The position numbers and the translations under genes were made by a program. The notes under the pieces were generated by a model. That model was not told where the DNA came from and made no database searches. It was given only the letters and a program-made list of their open reading frames with translations. From positions 256,001 to 320,000 of the forward strand of contig CAVYZN010000011.1 of assembly GCA_963773065.1 (NCBI GenBank): a stretch of 64,000 nucleotides of DNA, written 5' to 3'. Shown here one piece after another: positions 58,834 through 64,000 of the stretch (position 1 is the stretch's first letter; each line of letters opens with the position of its first letter). This stretch comes from an uncultured Gammaproteobacteria bacterium. Lineage in GTDB: Bacteria > Pseudomonadota > Gammaproteobacteria > UBA9214.

Positions 58834-59756
58834 ATGAGAGTCTTGCCCGTTGAGCGTATTCCGGAAGAGTTGTGGGCTGCGAACGTATTGCGGCTACCAA
58901 AGGTCGCTGTCAGTTGCTATAGGGACGAGCTAACTGCGCTAGGTTCGCTTGACGAAGCTAAGAAAGGAACAGACAAGAGATCGATACATGGGGGGTGTGG
59001 AATTGCGGAAACACTGGAACACTTCAAATACCGATTCGGTGTTTCCGCTGGCCGAGTGGAATTTAGCGCGATTGCCCCTGACGCCGGTTTGGAGACAGTA
59101 TCCGACGCGCTAATGGGCGACTTAACTGAAGGCCATGTGACGCTACTGGATATACCGTGTGGTAGTGGGTCGTCAGCGATTTCATTATTGGCAACGCTTG
59201 GAACTTACGGGCAACCGGTGTCCTTCCGATGTTGCCGCTAACCCTCACAGTCGTCGGTGGTGACTGCTCTGATAAGGCGCTTGGGATCTACGATTCGATG
59301 ATGAAGCGGTTACGGCCGCTGGTCACAGCTTATGGAATCGAGATCAATTGGCAAGGGCTGCTTTGGGATGCAACCCGCGCCGACTCAACGGCGAGACTGA
59401 TCGACCAATGGTTTGCCTCGGGTGCTGGCGCAGTCGAGTACATTGTCTGCATCGCGAACTTCAGTGGCGCTTTGACTAGCGCAGGGGTGTTCGACCAGTT
59501 CTCGCCCAGCTTGGAGCAGATACTCGGTCGCCTACATGATAAGAAAGGCGCGCTCATATGGGTTGAGCCTACGAGCACGAAAGTGCAGACCAAGTTCTTA
59601 CCGAGGATTCTGGAATTTCTCAGTAAAAGAATTTCCTGGTTCTCATCTGGAACGGGCGGCACGGCGTTTACGTCTGTGAAATACGAGATGGAAGACCCAC
59701 TCAATGGGAAAGCATTCGAGACTGGGGTTGAGGTCCAGCGGTTTGTGAGGAAATAG
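58834..59756 (+). CDS. SAM-dependent methyltransferase-like protein (~307 aa; frameshift near 59200), partner of the RT
   Basis: Motif-I-like VTLLDIPCGSG, then VVGGDCSDKAL, LWDAT and CIANFSG; stop is 5 nt before the RT ATG. Confidence 0.6.
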
Positions 59757-59843
59757 GGAACATGGCCTTGAGTTCCAGTCTTCTTGGTCTGCGCGCACTT
59801 CAGGCAACGCGCCGCCTACATTTGCCGTCGTATGTTGGGATCC

Positions 59844-61133
59844 TCAGCAGAATCTGTGGGTGAGCTGTGGCTCGGGTAGCGCCCCAAGTTTATGATAAAG
59901 CATAATCTTTATCGCCTTCGCGGTTCGAAATCCGTAGGATGTTCTGATACTCGCCTTGAGTTTGTTGTTCAGGCCCTCGACTGCGCCGAGTGAGACTTCA
60001 TCGCGCGCCTCGAACCAGTTCAGGATAAGCGGCTTGTGCGTACGGATCATGCGTGCGATCTTCTTCATCGGCTCAAGGCGCGATCGCATCACCTTTTTGC
60101 ACCATTGGTCCAGGAACTTTTCCGCCCACGCCGGGGAGACATACTCCCAAAACAGCTGGAACTCTTCCTTGAGCAGGTAGGCCCGTATGGATTTCAGGTT
60201 GTACAAGAGCAGATCCTTGAGCTTGGTCGCCTGGTTCTCGTTCAAGTTCTCAGGGCGCTTCAACAGACACCAGCGCGAGTGCGTGAGGATCACCTTCGCT
60301 CCTTTAGCGAGGAGTTTCAGAGCGTGTGTTTCCTTCGCGCGAACCTCATCGATGGCTTTGTTCATCTTGGCGGCAATGTGATAGCGATCCAGGATGTTCA
60401 GCGCGTTGGGTGCGTGCTTGGCGATGACATTAAGATAGGGCTTCCACATGTCCGAGCAGACGAACTCGATGAGCGCACTACGTTCCTTGCCGAACCAGAC
60501 GAAGAACTTACGCAGGCTCTTCTCTTGTCGATCCTCGATGACAAACAACAGCCGCTTCATACCCTGGTTGATCTGATACACCAGCGTGAGGAACTTGCCC
60601 TTCTTCCAGTAGATTTCATCCACGCCGATAGCCGAAATACCGGTGAGATCCATGCGTTCGCGTCCCCAGATCACCGCCATCTCGACGGAGCGAAATACGC
60701 TCTCCCAGCTGGTCTGGAAGCGCCGGGATACCACCTGCCAGCTCAGCAGTTTGGCCCAACTGGCGAGGAACCAGGCAAAACTCTGCGTGACCGGGCGCTT
60801 GCCCAAGGCCCACGGTAGATGCTCCACGTGAATACCACACCGAACGCACTCCAGCCGCCGTGGCGCGTACACGAACCAAGTCGTCATTCCCCACAGTGGC
60901 ACAAATTGAAAGCACCGCTCCGCCAGCCTGTCGTACCCCGGCGCCGGCAACAGGCACTGCGAGCACTTGCCATGCTTGCCCTGATGCGCGCGAAGACCGA
61001 TCTCGATGCTCGGCACACAGGCGGACAAGCTCCCCCTTCGAGTGCCGACCGCCGTGCTGATTCGGCTCGACTCATAGACAAACCCCTTCATCGGCTCAAC
61101 GCGGTTGAGCAGCGTCTTCAATGCAAGGTGCAT
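59844..61133 (-). CDS. ISL3-family transposase
   Basis: Zinc finger, IGVDE, CSDMW..Y, DRYHI, EGLNNKLK...SYGFR. Confidence 0.93.
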   Translation of the reverse strand: MHLALKTLLNRVEPMKGFVYESSRISTAVGTRRGSLSACVPSIEIGLRAHQGKHGKCSQCLLPAPGYDRLAERCFQFVPLWGMTTWFVYAPRRLECVRCGIHVEHLPWALGKRPVTQSFAWFLASWAKLLSWQVVSRRFQTSWESVFRSVEMAVIWGRERMDLTGISAIGVDEIYWKKGKFLTLVYQINQGMKRLLFVIEDRQEKSLRKFFVWFGKERSALIEFVCSDMWKPYLNVIAKHAPNALNILDRYHIAAKMNKAIDEVRAKETHALKLLAKGAKVILTHSRWCLLKRPENLNENQATKLKDLLLYNLKSIRAYLLKEEFQLFWEYVSPAWAEKFLDQWCKKVMRSRLEPMKKIARMIRTHKPLILNWFEARDEVSLGAVEGLNNKLKASIRTSYGFRTAKAIKIMLYHKLGALPEPQLTHRFC

Positions 61134-61162
61134 GGATCATCCAGTTCTGGGAAAATCGGAGT

Positions 61163-61435
61163 ATGCGGAACTGGCTCACCCTACTCAAGCGCAAAAACCC
61201 CCACGCCACCTCTGGCATCTGCGAGCAGTGCTCAAGCACTTCGCTCAAACGAAAGATCGCCACCTACCCGGTCGATCTTAATGGCAGGCTCGCCGGCAGA
61301 CGCATCGATGTCTACCGTGTTGAACTTGATCAATGCCGAAAATGTGGCCATCTCATGCCCACCACAGAGGGACAAGCCAAGGTCAAACGCTGTGTCAAAA
61401 TAGGAAGAAATATCTTCCTTAAAAACCTCAACTAG
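61163..61435 (+). CDS. Small zinc-ribbon (YgiT/MqsA-like) passenger gene inside the ISL3
   Basis: CEQC...CRKCG; RBS GGAG; lies within the IS ends, divergent from the transposase. Confidence 0.6.
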   Translation: MRNWLTLLKRKNPHATSGICEQCSSTSLKRKIATYPVDLNGRLAGRRIDVYRVELDQCRKCGHLMPTTEGQAKVKRCVKIGRNIFLKNLN

Positions 61436-61836
61436 CCACACCGGCTACCCACATTTTGTGCGGAATAGCCGTATGTTGCAACGCGCTTTTTGCTGGAATC
61501 AGTCGCAGGGAGTTCTGATAGCTCGTGGGCGGGTGCCGTTTTGCCGCGGAAGTACCAGGCACGCAAGATGGGTCGCTTTCATCCGATCCAAAAGTTCAAG
61601 AAGGCAAGAGAGGACGGCAGCCCAGAATACAGGGACTTTTATGTTCCCAGTCCAACAACTGCTATCACGGAGGCTTTGGTGCTCGCGAACATGGCTTCCT
61701 CTCCGGCCTTTGCGAAGCCAAGAAACGTATTTAGCTATTGGTGGCCAAACCGGCATGAATGTCCGTACAACTTCGAACAGTACGCGCCCGATGCCGGTAG
61801 CGCGTGGGTCTTCGGCTTCGGCGGCGGCGGCCAGGT

Positions 61837-63145
61837 TGAACCGCCCCGGGAATTCCGGAGACTCGGTTGTTTGAGTCAGGCCGCCATGGCCGACTCCTCC
61901 AATTGGCGATAATACGCCTGTTCCAACTCCGCCGGTGGCACGTAACCGATCGGCTCCAGTAACCGACGGTGATTGAACCAGTCAACCCACTCCAGAGTGG
62001 CGTACTCGACCGCATCGATGCTCCGCCAGGGACCGCGGCGATGGATGACCTCGGTCTTGTACAGACCGATGATCGTCTCGGCCAGGGCGTTGTCATAGGA
62101 GTCACCTCGACTTCCGACCGAAGACTCCACACCCGCTTCCGCCAGACGCTCCGTATAGCGGATCGACAGATACTGACTGCCCCGATCGCTGTGATGCACT
62201 AGACCCTCCGTCCCAGTGCGCGACCACAGCGCCTGCTCCAGCGCATCCAGCACCAGATCCGTGCGCATCGAACTGGCGACGCGCCAGCCGACAATGCGCC
62301 GGGCAAAGACGTCGATGACAAAGGCCACATAGACGAGGCCCGCCCAGGTGGCGACATAGGTAAAATCCGCCACCCACAGCTGATTGGGCCGCATCGCCGT
62401 GAACTGCCGATTCACCAGGTCCGCCGGCCGATCGGCCGCCTCATCGCTCACGGTCGTCCGGCAGGAACGGCCACGTACCACCCCGTGCAGGCCAAGGCGG
62501 CGCATCAGGCGCTCCACGGTGCAGCGCGCCACGGCGATCTGTTCGCGGTTTAGCTGCTTCCAGACCTTCTCTGCGCCGTAGACACGGAAATTCTCGTCCC
62601 AGACCCGCTGGATCTGCCCCGAGAGTTCGATATCGCGCCGCGCCCGCGGCGGTAACCGCGTTGGATCCCTCTCGCGGGCCTTCTGCTCGTAGTAGGTGGA
62701 TGGGGCGATCGGCAGCTGCGCACAGATCGACTCGACCCCGTACTCGGCCCGGTGCGTGTCGATAAACGACACCATCACTTCGCTCGGCGGTCGAGTTCCG
62801 CCTGGGCGAAAAAAGCCGCCGCCTTGCGCAGGATCTCATTGGCCCGCCTGAGCTCACGGTTCTCCCGCTCCAGCTCTTTGACCCGTTCCCGCTCCGAACT
62901 GGTCAAACCGCCACGCCGCCCTTGATCGCGCTCTGCCTGGCGCACCCATTTGCGCAAGGTCTCGGCCGTGCAGCCAATCTTGCTCGCGATCGAACCGATC
63001 GCCGCCCACTGGGACTCGTGCTCACCCTGGTGTTCAATTACCAGCCGCACCGCACGCTCCCGAACTTCCGGTGAATATTTCTTTGACGTGTTCATAACTC
63101 CATCCTCTCAAGAAATGGAGTCTCCGGTAAACCCGGGGCGGTTCA
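61837..63145 (-). mobile_element. Intact IS3-family element (IS51-like group): orfA 62775..63095, orfB 61876..62778
   Basis: IRs TGAACCGCCCCGGG..TCCGGAGACT and AGTCTCCGG...[31 protein letters not shown] and [10 protein letters not shown] motifs; no TSD. Confidence 0.95.
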
Positions 63146-64000
63146 CTACGTTAAAGGATATAGAGCGCGCAATCGGGCAATTGAGCAGTATCTTGAGAAA
63201 AATAGGGACGTCGTGTTGGTCGTCTCGGATATTGAGAAGTTCTATCCCAGCATTTTGAGGAATCGAGTCACTGTACGGTTCAATACATCATTGCGCGAAA
63301 GTGCGATTGCCAAGGATGTGCAGGCCACTGCTTCGACCTTGTTGGAGCACCTTTTCGCCGGAGTGCCCGGAGATAGAGGTGTCGCAACAGGCCCGGAGTT
63401 GAGTCACGTGATTGGTGACTTTGCGCTCAACCGCGTGGATGAAGTGCTAGCAGAGAGGTATGGGGATGCATACTTTCGGTATGTTGACGACATTGTTCTC
63501 GCGGTCCCGCCTGGCGAGAAGGAAAGTGCGATTAGGTTGTTAACTGATCTTGTTGCGAATGAAGAGCTGACTATCCACCGAGACAAGACTGATGTTGTCT
63601 CAAGCGATGAATGGCTAGAGCATGGACCCCACCACACACATCGTATCGAGGAGAATTCGTTTGAAGCTCTTGTATTTATGCTCAAGGTTTACCTTCTCCG
63701 CAACCCTGATGCAGAAACGGCTTTAGCGGAACGTTTGAAAGCAAATGGGTTCGCAATTCCATTGGAACGTATTAGTTGGGCAGGGCGGAGTGGTTCCTTT
63801 TTGTGACCGTCTCACCCGGTTAAGACGAAGGGGATGGTGGGTCGCAATTCGAGCCCTGGTTGCTCGCGAGCGCGATGTGCTGGAGAAGGCGCAGATAGTA
63901 CGCAAGGAGGTACGCGAATCACTAGACAGACTTCTCGCTGCAAATATGCCGCAGGGATCGACCCGCAGAAGGTGGTTCGTTCAGCGTCTTCGATATTTAA

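What the first reader, a model, noticed from the sequence alone, without database searches (positions are those of the whole stretch)
58834..64000. Hidden methyltransferase + reverse transcriptase two-gene module embedded in a type I R-M operon
Seen: a ~307-aa ORF with a SAM-binding-like motif (LLDIPCGSG) starts 34 nt after hsdS and stops 5 nt before an ATG at 59762. Excising the ISL3 and one TSD copy gives an unbroken frame MALSSSLLGLRALQATRRLHLPSYVATRFLLESVAG...EYRDFYVPSP...VFSYWW...PYNFE. After the IS3 it resumes YVKGYRARN...[11 protein letters not shown]...GVATGPELSHVIG...FRYVDDIVL, followed by a helical tail (about 410 aa or more, running off the window). Known: these are RT palm motifs. 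The protein lacks retron NAxxH/VTG, DGR SQ and intron PQG/YADD signatures, and there is no room for a ncRNA directly upstream. Unknown-group (UG/Abi, DRT) RTs are often antiphage. Inference: a DRT-like defence system in which an RT works with a dedicated methyltransferase-fold protein (modifying the product, primer or RT), co-transcribed with hsdS. I cannot assign a UG number or confirm novelty. The ORF track shows only fragments, so automated annotation would probably miss the pairing.
Basis: partly seen in the sequence, partly recalled or inferred. Interest (0 to 1): 0.88.

Follow-up and report, generated by a model that had tools for sequence, protein, structure and literature searches.

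The report
Broken UG36 reverse transcriptase–methyltransferase-like pair
This is a decayed copy of an already catalogued but never tested candidate anti-phage gene pair, a "UG36" reverse transcriptase and its methyltransferase-shaped partner, wedged inside a type I restriction-modification operon and destroyed by two jumping genes and two frameshifts.

Summary
The RT pieces match PADLOC RT_UG36 collinearly (profile positions 28-556 of 557) and match an intact 581-aa relative at 85-87% identity.

The UG36 RT plus a separate "methylase" gene is already in print (Mestre 2022, PMC9226505), so the pairing is not new. This scan has also met it in other genomes.

Both genes are dead here:
- The partner is not one 307-aa ORF. 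It is 135 + 175 aa in two frames, with one base missing at 59200-59203.
- The RT is cut by an ISL3, by an IS3 plus an unexplained filler, and by an extra T at 63798-63802.

- The partner sits directly upstream of the RT in 42 of 42 testable loci.
- The partner's predicted fold is closest to Rsm22/METTL17 (Z 15-19).
- The RT has an AbiK/AbiA/DRT4-like layout: RT domain plus C-terminal helical domain.
- A complex model supports binding (0.89; best control 0.00).
- In 10 loci the pair runs co-directionally with methylation-based restriction genes. Here it lies between hsdS and hsdM.

Function is untested. Interest is low to moderate.

The parts
52521..55252 (+). hsdR of the type I R-M locus (EcoEI/EcoAI-type C-terminus), split over two frames by one frameshift
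   Evidence: Pfam ResIII, SWI2_SNF2 and HSDR_N on 52521-54218; Helicase_C and EcoEI_R_C on 54020-55249.
55580..57197 (+). Cargo inside the hsd operon: an ORF6N gene (55580-55975), a RelE/ParE toxin (56001-56333) with its neighbour ORF (56339-56641), and a broken second ORF6N (56680-57197)
   Evidence: PF10543 ORF6N at E 1.9e-34 and 1.7e-7; TIGR02683 at E 2.3e-27.
57379..58799 (+). hsdS, spread over at least three frames
   Evidence: Three pieces match NF007278 (type I specificity subunit) collinearly at profile positions 60-163, 229-328 and 340-420. One piece gives a weak Methylase_S hit.
58834..59756 (+). Methyltransferase-fold partner of the UG36 RT, a pseudogene with one base missing at 59200-59203. 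It would encode 307 aa.
   Evidence: ORFs in two frames. P0113 residues 1-125 align to 58834-59202 and residues 127-309 to 59205-59753. Homologues lie directly upstream of the RT in 42 of 42 testable loci. All family-conserved residues are still present.
59762..59837 (+). UG36 RT, piece 1 (codons 1-25)
   Evidence: tblastn with P0002; sequence.
59838..61470 (-). ISL3-family insertion sequence (transposase 59844-61133) with the 8-bp target duplication GTATGTTG
   Evidence: PF01610 at E 4.4e-70; copies on C19 (99%) and C22 (100%); duplication read from the sequence.
61471..61783 (+). UG36 RT, piece 2 (codons ~24-127)
   Evidence: RT_UG36 profile 28-120, E 1.6e-23. P0002 is 85% and P0001 98.6% identical here.
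61784..61836 (.). Unexplained filler between RT piece 2 and the IS3 left end
   Evidence: It is absent from the five other IS3 copies and has no other copy in the genome.
61837..63145 (-). IS3-family insertion sequence (orfB 61876-62778, orfA 62775-63095, ALIL pseudoknot 62701-62817)
   Evidence: Pfam rve, HTH_21 and HTH_Tnp_1; Rfam RF01497 at 94.5 bits; five other copies at 92-95% identity.
63146..63803 (+). UG36 RT, piece 3: palm motifs including YVDD
   Evidence: RT_UG36 profile 122-332, E 1.2e-62, against the next best model Drt8 at 7e-19. RVT_1 scores 30.3 bits. P0001 is 100% identical.
63798..63802 (+). Run of five T causing a +1 frameshift in the RT
   Evidence: The window reads ...GSFL-stop. 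P0001 reads ...GSFCDRL..., which continues in the next frame.
63799..64000 (+). UG36 RT, piece 4: the C-terminal helical domain. It runs on to window-equivalent 64515 (L001 6515). An hsdM start follows 9 nt later (L001 6525).
   Evidence: RT_UG36 profile 333-556, E 7.4e-45. P0001 is 100% identical over 238 aa. hsdM 5' fragment.

Best explanation
The locus holds a pseudogenised copy of the UG36 two-gene module of the UG/Abi family of defence-associated reverse transcriptases. The module is a ~307-aa SAM-methyltransferase-fold protein, translationally coupled to a 581-aa RT with a YVDD active site. The pair was carried as cargo between hsdS and hsdM of a type I (EcoEI/EcoAI-like) restriction-modification operon, on a low-GC island.

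In this assembly the module cannot work. The RT is interrupted by an ISL3, by an IS3 and by a +1 frameshift. The partner carries a -1 frameshift. The surrounding hsd genes are frameshifted too.

How an intact module most likely works is inferred, not shown:
1. The two proteins form one complex. They are fused in a few relatives and in the UG35 group.
2. The RT has the layout of the Abi/class 1 DRT polymerases: an RT domain plus a C-terminal helical domain, with no room for a flanking ncRNA in several loci. It therefore probably makes DNA without a dedicated flanking template, perhaps protein-primed, after a phage cue, and this stops the infection.
3. The partner keeps a strongly conserved SAM-binding loop and an Rsm22/METTL17-like nucleic-acid-binding fold. 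It acts either as the SAM-dependent regulator or sensor, or as a modifier of the RT's nucleic acid.

My odds: about 0.97 that this is UG36 plus its partner; about 0.9 that it is inactive here; about 0.65 that the family is a defence system; about 0.35 for untemplated or protein-primed synthesis.
For: Identity:
- The three RT pieces hit RT_UG36 collinearly at E 1.6e-23, 1.2e-62 and 7.4e-45.
- Intact relative P0002 scores 2.7e-150 on RT_UG36, against 4.6e-18 for the next model.
- YVDD is present in 85 of 85 relatives. The retron NAxxH motif is present in 1 of 85.

Published pairing: passages of PMC9226505.

Partner linkage:
- A homologue lies directly upstream in 39 of 39 loci that have upstream DNA. 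That is out of 45 UG36 loci; the other 6 were too short.
- The same holds in 2 of 2 viral-contig loci and on one named plasmid (HMM E 8e-103).
- The partner stop and the RT start overlap by 4 nt in 17 of 27 loci and are never more than 4 nt apart.
- One natural fusion, P0214, joins the partner (residues 2-306) to RT_UG36 (residues 316-769).
- 29 of 33 partners match the N-terminal part of the RT_UG35 profile.

Partner fold:
- AF2 model with pLDDT 91.7.
- Foldseek gives 382 PDB hits at E<=1e-3. All rows shown but three (GRAS-domain proteins) are class I methyltransferases.
- VIA-align gives Z 15.4-19.4 over 246-265 residues to METTL17/Rsm22 chains. Other methyltransferases reach Z 14 or less.
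- The ESM Atlas agrees.
- The motif I Asp and Gly residues are kept in 137-142 of 142 family representatives.

RT fold:
- AF2 model with pLDDT 90.6.
- The top Foldseek hits are DRT6, AbiA, DRT4, Abi-P2, DRT9, UG15 and AbiK over the full length.
- The longest VIA alignments are to AbiA (375 aa, Z 15.9), AbiK (389 aa, Z 14.3) and UG15 (403 aa, Z 14.1).

Binding: the complex model scores 0.89 in three of three runs, with best control 0.00. That mark was reached by 58 of 80 solved complexes and 2 of 110 mismatched pairs. Contacts agree at 77% or more, and the partner's pLDDT is at least 85. The interface uses the partner's near-invariant 141-152 loop.

Decay. The genome holds no second UG36 copy.

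Foreign origin: GC 0.50-0.56 across 55250-64000, against 0.60-0.68 in the flanking window and 0.56-0.64 for whole contigs.

Context: hsdR, hsdS and hsdM around the pair. No promoter-like or plus-strand terminator-like site lies between hsdS and the pair.
Against: - No experiment on UG36 was found. Three full-text searches returned only the 2022 catalogue paper for UG36. Defence and every mechanistic step therefore rest on analogy and neighbourhood.
- Pfam, NCBIfam and a PDB sequence search give the partner no methyltransferase family.
- The partner's motif IV position reads N-F-S-G rather than (D/N)PP(Y/F). The Asn is replaced by Ala in 19 of 142 representatives. Catalysis is therefore uncertain.
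- By profile score, the RT core is as near to ncRNA-using class 2 groups (Drt8, UG17, Drt3a) as to class 1. By VIA Z-score, the RT core is nearest to group II-like, DGR and DRT2 RTs.
- TM-scores to Abi/DRT structures are only 0.31-0.43.
- Mestre et al. state that they found no evidence of a C-terminal alphaRep domain in UG36.
- The frameshifts could not be checked against reads: no run was listed.
- P0001 is 100% identical yet lacks both the IS3 and the RT frameshift. Those two lesions are therefore very recent, polymorphic, or (for the frameshift) an assembly error.
Confidence: 0.8

Rival explanations
1. The pair is not merely stacked beside restriction genes. It is a functional accessory or back-up of SAM-dependent, methylation-based restriction systems. 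For example, it could fire when a phage disables restriction or depletes SAM.
For: - R-M-type genes flank the pair in 11 of 14 loci with at least 5 kb of upstream DNA, and in 12 of 30 annotated loci overall.
- In 10 loci they are contiguous and co-directional: window, L013 (HmaB-HmaC), L018, L019, L021, L025, L031 and L137 (type I), L022 (type III) and L049 (DISARM DrmMI). In 2 loci they are not (L010, L017).
- The partner start overlaps the stop of hsdS (L019, L021), of HmaC (L013) or of the type III Res gene (L022).
- Type I genes were found in 5 of 14 UG36 loci of at least 10 kb, against 0 of 13 control RT loci from the same scan.
- Earlier notes of this scan say the same of other genomes. 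That is not independent evidence.
Against: - Three long-flank loci (L027, L043, L051) show no R-M gene.
- Other neighbours are unrelated defence systems: a type IV retron, Olokun, Lamassu LmuB, PsyrT and TIR. That fits ordinary defence-island stacking.
- R-M systems are the commonest defence genes.
- The loci are partly related to one another (L023-L025, L137), the numbers are small, and the control used only type I seeds taken from the UG36 loci themselves.
Confidence: 0.15
2. UG36 is an RNA-templated (class 2-like) DRT. Its template lies inside the coding region or elsewhere, and the Rsm22-like partner binds or methylates that RNA.
For: - The second-best profile hits are class 2 groups: Drt8, UG17 and Drt3a.
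- The RT core aligns best with the template-using G2L4, DGR, group II and DRT2 RTs, at Z 17-19.
- The partner's nearest fold, Rsm22/METTL17, is an rRNA-bound factor.
Against: - No Rfam family lies in the locus apart from the IS3 pseudoknot.
- The upstream gap is zero or negative in about 10 loci, and the downstream gap is under 60 nt in 7. L021 and L025 have room on neither side.
- The full-length layout matches untemplated Abi/DRT4-type enzymes.
Confidence: 0.15
3. The module, or part of its damage, is not really dead in the organism. The single-base frameshifts are assembly errors or minority alleles, and intact alleles circulate.
For: - P0001 (526 aa, 100% identical) spans the IS3 site and the T-run without interruption.
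- The genome is an incomplete multi-contig assembly (completeness 90.9%, contamination 6.3%).
Against: - P0001 starts at an internal Met just after the ISL3 site, as expected if that contig also breaks at the ISL3.
- Every resident gene across about 15 kb carries frameshifts: hsdR 1, hsdS at least 3 frames, hsdM 2, the IS4-like transposase 1. The roughly 3 kb of newly inserted IS are intact, and the rest of the window has long intact ORFs. This fits real decay better than random error.
- No second copy lies in the genome.
Confidence: 0.25
4. The pair is a selfish or domesticated retroelement unrelated to defence.
For: - It is carried on islands with integrases, resolvases and IS elements.
- No phage assay exists.
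Against: - It is single-copy in this genome. The one positive genome among 400 others of the class gave a single match.
- It has no endonuclease or integrase domain of its own.
- Only 2 UG36 loci turned up in the viral-contig scan.
- Its neighbours are overwhelmingly defence genes.
- Mestre et al. predict defence from loci.
Confidence: 0.04

Closest known systems
UG36 group of UG/Abi reverse transcriptases (Mestre et al. 2022, PMC9226505; PADLOC RT_UG36, PDLC03775)
   Same: The RT matches the group's profile end to end. A separate methylase-like gene lies directly upstream. The setting is a defence island. It is a member.
   Different: This copy is broken by two IS elements and two frameshifts. 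New relative to the paper's main text: the Rsm22/METTL17-like fold of the partner, the Abi-like C-terminal helical domain, the predicted heterodimer, and the repeated operonic position beside restriction genes. The paper's supplements could not be opened and may already show such loci.
UG35 and UG25 (methylase-RT fusion proteins, class 1 UG/Abi)
   Same: The partner is homologous to the N-terminal domain of the UG35 profile (29 of 33 partners, best E 1.4e-10). A rare UG36 fusion exists (P0214).
   Different: Here there are two genes. The RT scores only 6.9e-14 on UG35 and 3.1e-10 on UG25, against 2.7e-150 on UG36. The UvrD partner of UG35 and the DUF1848 partner of UG25 were not among the neighbours annotated. 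No partner matched the UG25 profile.
AbiK, Abi-P2, AbiA, DRT4/UG15 and DRT6 polymerases (PMC9508834 passages read; the others from search listings and PDB titles)
   Same: The predicted architecture is an RT-like domain plus a C-terminal helical domain, and these give the longest structural alignments. No dedicated flanking ncRNA. An invariant Tyr lies in the N-terminal region (Tyr24), as AbiK has its priming Tyr44 in an N-terminal loop.
   Different: A different sequence family. It needs a methyltransferase-fold partner. No biochemical data exist. Priming residue, oligomeric state and product are unknown. TM-scores are only 0.31-0.43.
Rsm22/METTL17 mitoribosomal small-subunit assembly factors
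   Same: They are the best structural match over the whole partner, N-terminal extension included: Z 15.4-19.4, 246-265 residues, rmsd 3.5-4.4.
   Different: About 12% identity. The context is bacterial defence. No conserved Cys cluster appears among the family's conserved columns. A shared fold does not show shared function.
Restriction-linked genes embedded in type I R-M operons, such as the anticodon nuclease PrrC (recalled from memory, not from a call)
   Same: An abortive-infection-type gene carried inside an hsd operon and co-transcribed with it.
   Different: The proteins are unrelated. No evidence was obtained here that UG36 senses the state of the restriction enzyme.

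Membership tests
UG36 (UG/Abi RT group) | The RT matches the UG36 profile over its full length and better than any other RT group | tested here: met
   Pieces cover profile positions 28-120, 122-332 and 333-556 of 557 at E 1.6e-23, 1.2e-62 and 7.4e-45. The next best model is Drt8 at 7e-19. P0002 scores 2.7e-150 against 4.6e-18.
UG36 (UG/Abi RT group) | An adjacent gene with a methylase-type domain | tested here: met
   The partner is present upstream in 42 of 42 testable loci. Its fold is a class I methyltransferase.
UG36 (UG/Abi RT group) | Intact catalytic RT motifs (YxDD) | tested here: met
   YVDD is present in window piece 3 and in 85 of 85 relatives.
UG36 (UG/Abi RT group) | Placement in the UG36 clade of an RT phylogeny with reference sequences | not tested
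   No reference UG/Abi sequence set was available. Assignment rests on profile scores.
Functional anti-phage system | Uninterrupted genes and protection against phage | tested here: not met
   Both genes are interrupted in this assembly. Phage protection cannot be tested with these tools, and no report for UG36 was found.
Class I SAM-dependent methyltransferases (partner) | Seven-stranded Rossmann-like fold | tested here: met
   The AF2 model (pLDDT 91.7) has seven strands alternating with helices. Foldseek gives 382 hits at E<=1e-3. VIA-align gives Z up to 19.4.
Class I SAM-dependent methyltransferases (partner) | Motif I, the acidic residue plus GxG SAM loop | tested here: met
   Asp in 140 of 142, Gly in 142 of 142 and Gly in 137 of 142 representatives. 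The window reads LLDIPCGSGS.
Class I SAM-dependent methyltransferases (partner) | Match to a curated methyltransferase sequence family | tested here: not met
   No Pfam or NCBIfam hit. The PDB sequence profile gives E 0.9 or worse for methyltransferases. hhalign against HsdM gives probability 8%.
Class I SAM-dependent methyltransferases (partner) | Methyl-transfer activity and its substrate | not testable with these tools
   The motif IV position reads N-F-S-G, with Ala in place of Asn in 19 of 142. Catalysis is uncertain.
Class 1 UG/Abi RTs (AbiK-like) | C-terminal alpha-helical repeat domain packed against the RT domain | tested here: inconclusive
   Model residues ~300-563 are all helical. 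Full-length alignments to AbiA, AbiK, UG15 and DRT6 reach Z 14-16 over 319-403 aa. However, TM-scores are 0.31-0.43, and the Atlas search of the C-terminal part alone gave TM below 0.5.
Retrons, group II introns, DGRs | Signature motifs (NAxxH and VTG; YADD with maturase; SQ) and a cognate structured RNA | tested here: not met
   NAxxH in 1 of 85, VTG in 6 of 85 and YADD in 0 of 85. No retron, intron or DGR RNA family was found by Rfam. Profiles of these groups score far below UG36.
Type I R-M operon (context) | hsdR, hsdS and hsdM on one strand around the pair | tested here: met
   hsdR, hsdS, an hsdM start 9 nt after the RT stop, and a full hsdM further on. All are frameshifted.

The most novel reading that the evidence does not exclude
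UG36 pairs are dedicated riders of SAM-dependent, methylation-based restriction systems (type I, type III, Hma, DISARM). The Rsm22-like partner would read the SAM pool or the state of the restriction complex. When a phage blocks restriction, it would release an AbiK-like, protein-primed DNA synthesis by the RT that aborts infection. The invariant N-terminal Tyr24 or the Tyr-rich acidic C-terminal tail would be candidate primers.
Probability: 0.1. Interest if true: 0.8.

Novelty: already known. Interest (0 to 1): 0.3.

Why it matters
The window adds only a dead member of a catalogued family. The family itself has never been tested, and it is one of the few RT-based candidate defence systems that pairs a polymerase with a methyltransferase-fold protein.

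The comparative work done here gives concrete handles for experiments:
- a confident heterodimer model with a conserved interface;
- an Rsm22/METTL17-like partner with a strictly conserved SAM loop;
- an Abi-like RT architecture with no room for a flanking ncRNA;
- a recurrent operonic position at the end of, or inside, methylation-based restriction operons.

If that last link is functional, it would be a new example of layered immunity, with a back-up system wired to restriction-modification.

Tried and rejected
- Reads: the look-up of sequencing runs listed no run for 58834-59838, so neither the frameshifts nor expression could be checked.
- Partner sequence searches gave no methyltransferase family: Pfam, NCBIfam and a PDB sequence profile (best methyltransferase E 0.94).
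- hhalign of the partner against an HsdM alignment gave probability 8%. The aligned stretch did cover HsdM motif X and motif I.
- An ESM Atlas search with the RT C-terminal part gave only TM 0.35-0.47 to TPR/HEAT-like proteins.
- The genome-contig scan with one protein gave only 2 loci. A survey of 400 other genomes of the same class gave 1 positive, too rare for a genome census.
- Viral contigs held 2 UG36 loci.
- ncRNA: Rfam at gathering thresholds found only the IS3 ALIL element and a tRNA. The promoter and terminator scan between hsdS and the pair found nothing on the plus strand.
- The filler at 61784-61836 has no other copy in the genome.
- Literature: searches for UG36/UG35/UG25, for 'defense-associated reverse transcriptase' with methyltransferase, and for DRT10-12 found no experimental work on UG36. 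DRT10 is UG17, and DRT11 appears to be UG5.
- Considered and rejected: a retron, group II intron or DGR, and a second intact UG36 copy in this genome.

Full report
**What is there**

The window is C11:256001-320000 of a 3.84-Mb, 33-contig assembly. I fetched the next 12 kb as L001, where L001 coordinate = window coordinate minus 58000.

On the plus strand the locus reads, in order:
- hsdR, 52521-55252, in two frames
- an ORF6N gene
- a RelE/ParE toxin with its neighbour ORF
- a broken second ORF6N
- hsdS, 57379-58799, in at least three frames
- a 34-nt gap
- the methyltransferase-like gene, 58834-59756
- a 5-nt gap
- the RT gene, from 59762 to window-equivalent 64515
- a 9-nt gap
- an hsdM start (L001 6525), cut by an IS4-like element
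- a 3'-truncated Fic gene
- a second hsdM 5' fragment
- two unknown ORFs
- a full but frameshifted hsdM (L001 10430-11941)
- a NERD gene

GC is 0.50-0.56 across 55250-64000, against 0.60-0.68 in the flanking window, which marks foreign cargo.

**Check of the observation**

- The ISL3 (59838-61470) has a PF01610 transposase and the 8-bp duplication GTATGTTG. Near-identical copies lie on two other contigs.
- The IS3 (61837-63145) has HTH_Tnp_1 and rve ORFs and the ALIL frameshift pseudoknot. Five other copies are in the genome.
- An intact 581-aa relative (P0002) aligns to the four RT pieces in order, at 85-87% over the three long pieces.
- P0001 is 100% identical over pieces 3 and 4 and 98.6% over piece 2. 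It crosses the IS3 site and the later frameshift without a break.

- The partner is not one ORF. It is 135 + 175 aa in two frames. Against the nearest family representative (P0113, 61-65% identity), one base is missing at 59200-59203.
- The RT carries an extra T in the run at 63798-63802.
- About 52-57 bp next to the IS3 left end belong to neither gene nor IS, and occur nowhere else in the genome.

**What it is**

The RT pieces hit PADLOC's RT_UG36 model collinearly over profile positions 28-556 of 557, at E 1.6e-23, 1.2e-62 and 7.4e-45. The next model, Drt8, scores 7e-19. P0002 scores 2.7e-150 on RT_UG36.

YVDD is present in 85 of 85 relatives. Retron, group II and DGR signatures are absent. 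Pfam RVT_1 is only borderline (30.3 and 27.5 bits against a 29.6 cut-off), so routine annotation could indeed miss the gene.

Mestre et al. 2022 (PMC9226505; passages read) define UG36. [quoted passage not shown] The pairing is therefore published.

Full-text searches found no later experimental work on UG36. Earlier follow-ups of this scan reached the same identification on other genomes.

**The partner**

A homologue lies directly upstream of the RT in every locus that could be tested:
- 39 of 39 loci with usable upstream DNA, out of 45 UG36 loci (6 had under 220 nt upstream)
- 2 of 2 viral-contig loci
- a named plasmid, where RefSeq calls the gene hypothetical (HMM E 8e-103)

The partner stop and the RT start overlap by 4 nt in 17 of 27 loci.

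An exhaustive profile search found 475 representative clusters at E<=1e-3 (297 at E<=1e-30) among 1.84 billion. Nearly all are 280-340 aa. One is a partner-RT_UG36 fusion, P0214. Of 33 partners, 29 match the N-terminal part of the RT_UG35 profile.

No curated sequence family recognises the partner. Structure does:
- The AF2 model (pLDDT 91.7, pTM 0.91) shows a seven-stranded Rossmann fold behind a ~110-residue N-terminal extension.
- Foldseek gives 382 PDB hits at E<=1e-3. All rows shown but three (GRAS-domain proteins) are class I methyltransferases.
- VIA-align puts METTL17/Rsm22 chains clearly first: Z 15.4-19.4, 246-265 residues, whole length. Other methyltransferases reach Z 14 or less over about 200 residues.
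- The ESM Atlas model of P0113 gives the same picture. It also lists a 1006-aa RVT_1 cluster and NERD-fused clusters as structural neighbours.

Across 142 representatives, the SAM-loop Asp and two Gly are kept in 137-142. The motif IV position reads N-F-S-G, with Ala for Asn in 19. SAM binding is therefore probably retained, while catalysis is uncertain.

**The RT**

The AF2 model (pLDDT 90.6) has an RT domain followed by an all-helical C-terminal domain, roughly residues 300-563.

- Foldseek's top PDB hits are DRT6, AbiA, DRT4, Abi-P2, DRT9, UG15 and AbiK, with full-length alignments. Retron, group II and DGR RTs match only the core.
- By VIA-align the core alone is closest to G2L4, DGR, group II and DRT2 RTs (Z 17-19). 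The longest alignments are to AbiA (375 aa), AbiK (389 aa) and UG15 (403 aa), at Z 14-16.

This suggests a class 1-like layout, which the 2022 paper did not find. The TM-scores are modest (0.31-0.43), so I rate it inconclusive.

Several loci leave no room for a flanking ncRNA on either side (L021, L025). Rfam finds none. Invariant residues include Tyr24 in the N-terminal region. Many relatives end in an acidic tail with a Tyr in the last residues: the last residue is Tyr in 52 of 85. AbiK primes DNA synthesis from Tyr44 in an N-terminal loop (PMC9508834, passages read). The parallel is a lead only.

**Do the two proteins bind?**

The complex model of the L013 pair scored 0.89 in three of three runs, with a best control of 0.00.

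- That mark was reached by 58 of 80 solved complexes and 2 of 110 mismatched pairs. These counts hold only roughly, because my own alignments were used.
- The runs agree in at least 77% of contacts, and the partner's pLDDT is at least 85.
- The interface joins the RT N-terminal helices (residues 30-55) and C-terminal helices (532-553) to the partner's near-invariant 141-152 loop.

I know of no solved complex of this kind, so a pass from memory seems unlikely. A model supports binding but does not show it.

**Neighbourhoods**

I annotated the flanks of 28 loci, the window and the plasmid.

Methylation-based restriction genes run contiguously and co-directionally with the pair in 10 loci:
- type I: window, L018, L019, L021, L025, L031 and L137
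- Hma: L013
- type III: L022
- DISARM DrmMI: L049

They lie nearby on the other strand in 2 loci (L010, L017). They were not seen in 3 long-flank loci (L027, L043, L051), nor in the short ones.

Among loci with at least 5 kb upstream, the count is 11 of 14. A crude control found type I genes in 5 of 14 UG36 loci of at least 10 kb, against 0 of 13 other-RT loci from the same scan.

Other neighbours are a type IV retron, Olokun, LmuB, PsyrT, TIR, AbiJ and GmrSD. The main text of Mestre et al. does not mention R-M for UG36, and the supplements could not be opened. Kinship among loci and small numbers keep this a lead. I give 0.15 to a functional link rather than stacking.

**State in this genome**

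No second UG36 copy exists in the genome.

- Every resident gene of the island carries frameshifts, while the newly inserted ISL3 and IS3 are intact. The rest of the window has long intact ORFs. This favours real decay.
- P0001 shows that a variant without the IS3 and without the RT frameshift exists or existed. Those lesions are therefore very recent or polymorphic, or (for the frameshift) an assembly error.
- No sequencing run was listed to settle this.

**Verdict**

It is an already catalogued UG36 pair, and here it is a wreck. UG36 is rare: 1 of 400 other genomes of the class, and 475 partner clusters. It is also untested, so the structural and contextual leads above have some value. The window itself adds little.

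Noticed in passing
window 61784-61836: About 52-57 bp lie between the left RT piece and the IS3 left end and belong to neither. The flanks read GTACG on the left and CTACG on the right, like an imperfect 5-bp duplication. There is no other copy in the genome.
   Followed up: partly
L001 6525-6596, 8913-8989 and 10430-11941 (window-equivalent 64525-69941): There are three copies of the hsdM 5' end, 90-95% identical to one another. The first starts 9 nt after the RT stop and is cut by an IS4-like element. The second is fused to the end of a truncated Fic gene. The locus looks like a patchwork made by repeated recombination at the hsdM 5' end.
   Followed up: partly
window 55580-57197: Two ORF6N genes (one broken) and a RelE/ParE toxin-antitoxin pair sit between hsdR and hsdS, so this hsd operon has collected several cargo cassettes.
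   Followed up: partly
L001 11954-12865: A NERD-domain gene follows hsdM. Separately, the ESM Atlas lists NERD-fused proteins whose methyltransferase-like part is structurally similar to the UG36 partner (TM 0.69).
   Followed up: no
L001 9599-9734: Nested inverted repeats (22-nt and 24-nt arms, 88-95% complementary) lie in the gap between two unknown ORFs upstream of hsdM.
   Followed up: no
P0001 (database protein, 526 aa): It is 100% identical to the window RT over pieces 3 and 4 (98.6% over piece 2) but lacks the IS3 and the T-run frameshift. It starts at an internal Met just after the ISL3 site. This points to a sister allele or assembly in which only the ISL3 break is present.
   Followed up: partly
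G000 C10:19686-20081 and 22320-22715; C5:5512-5958; C32:190751-191197: Four other RT-like open frames of 452-475 aa occur as two identical-scoring pairs. They match the UG36 profile only in the RT core (E 5e-16 and 1.6e-7) and may be group II intron copies.
   Followed up: no
L010 13352-14635 and L043 12259-12840: A DUF6575 protein, weakly similar to PD-T4-10_B, lies 0.6-1.8 kb downstream of the UG36 pair in two unrelated loci.
   Followed up: no
L017 6428-8564: A type IV retron (RT_IV plus a 2TM protein) sits immediately upstream of a UG36 pair, so two RT systems lie in tandem.
   Followed up: no
RT C-terminus (P0002 residues ~560-581 and relatives): There is a conserved acidic tail with a Tyr in the last few residues in most close relatives. 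The last residue is Tyr in 52 of 85. More distant relatives often end in Ser-rich tails (14 end in Ser).
   Followed up: partly
window 34680-39758: A 1692-aa ORF on the plus strand was not examined.
   Followed up: no
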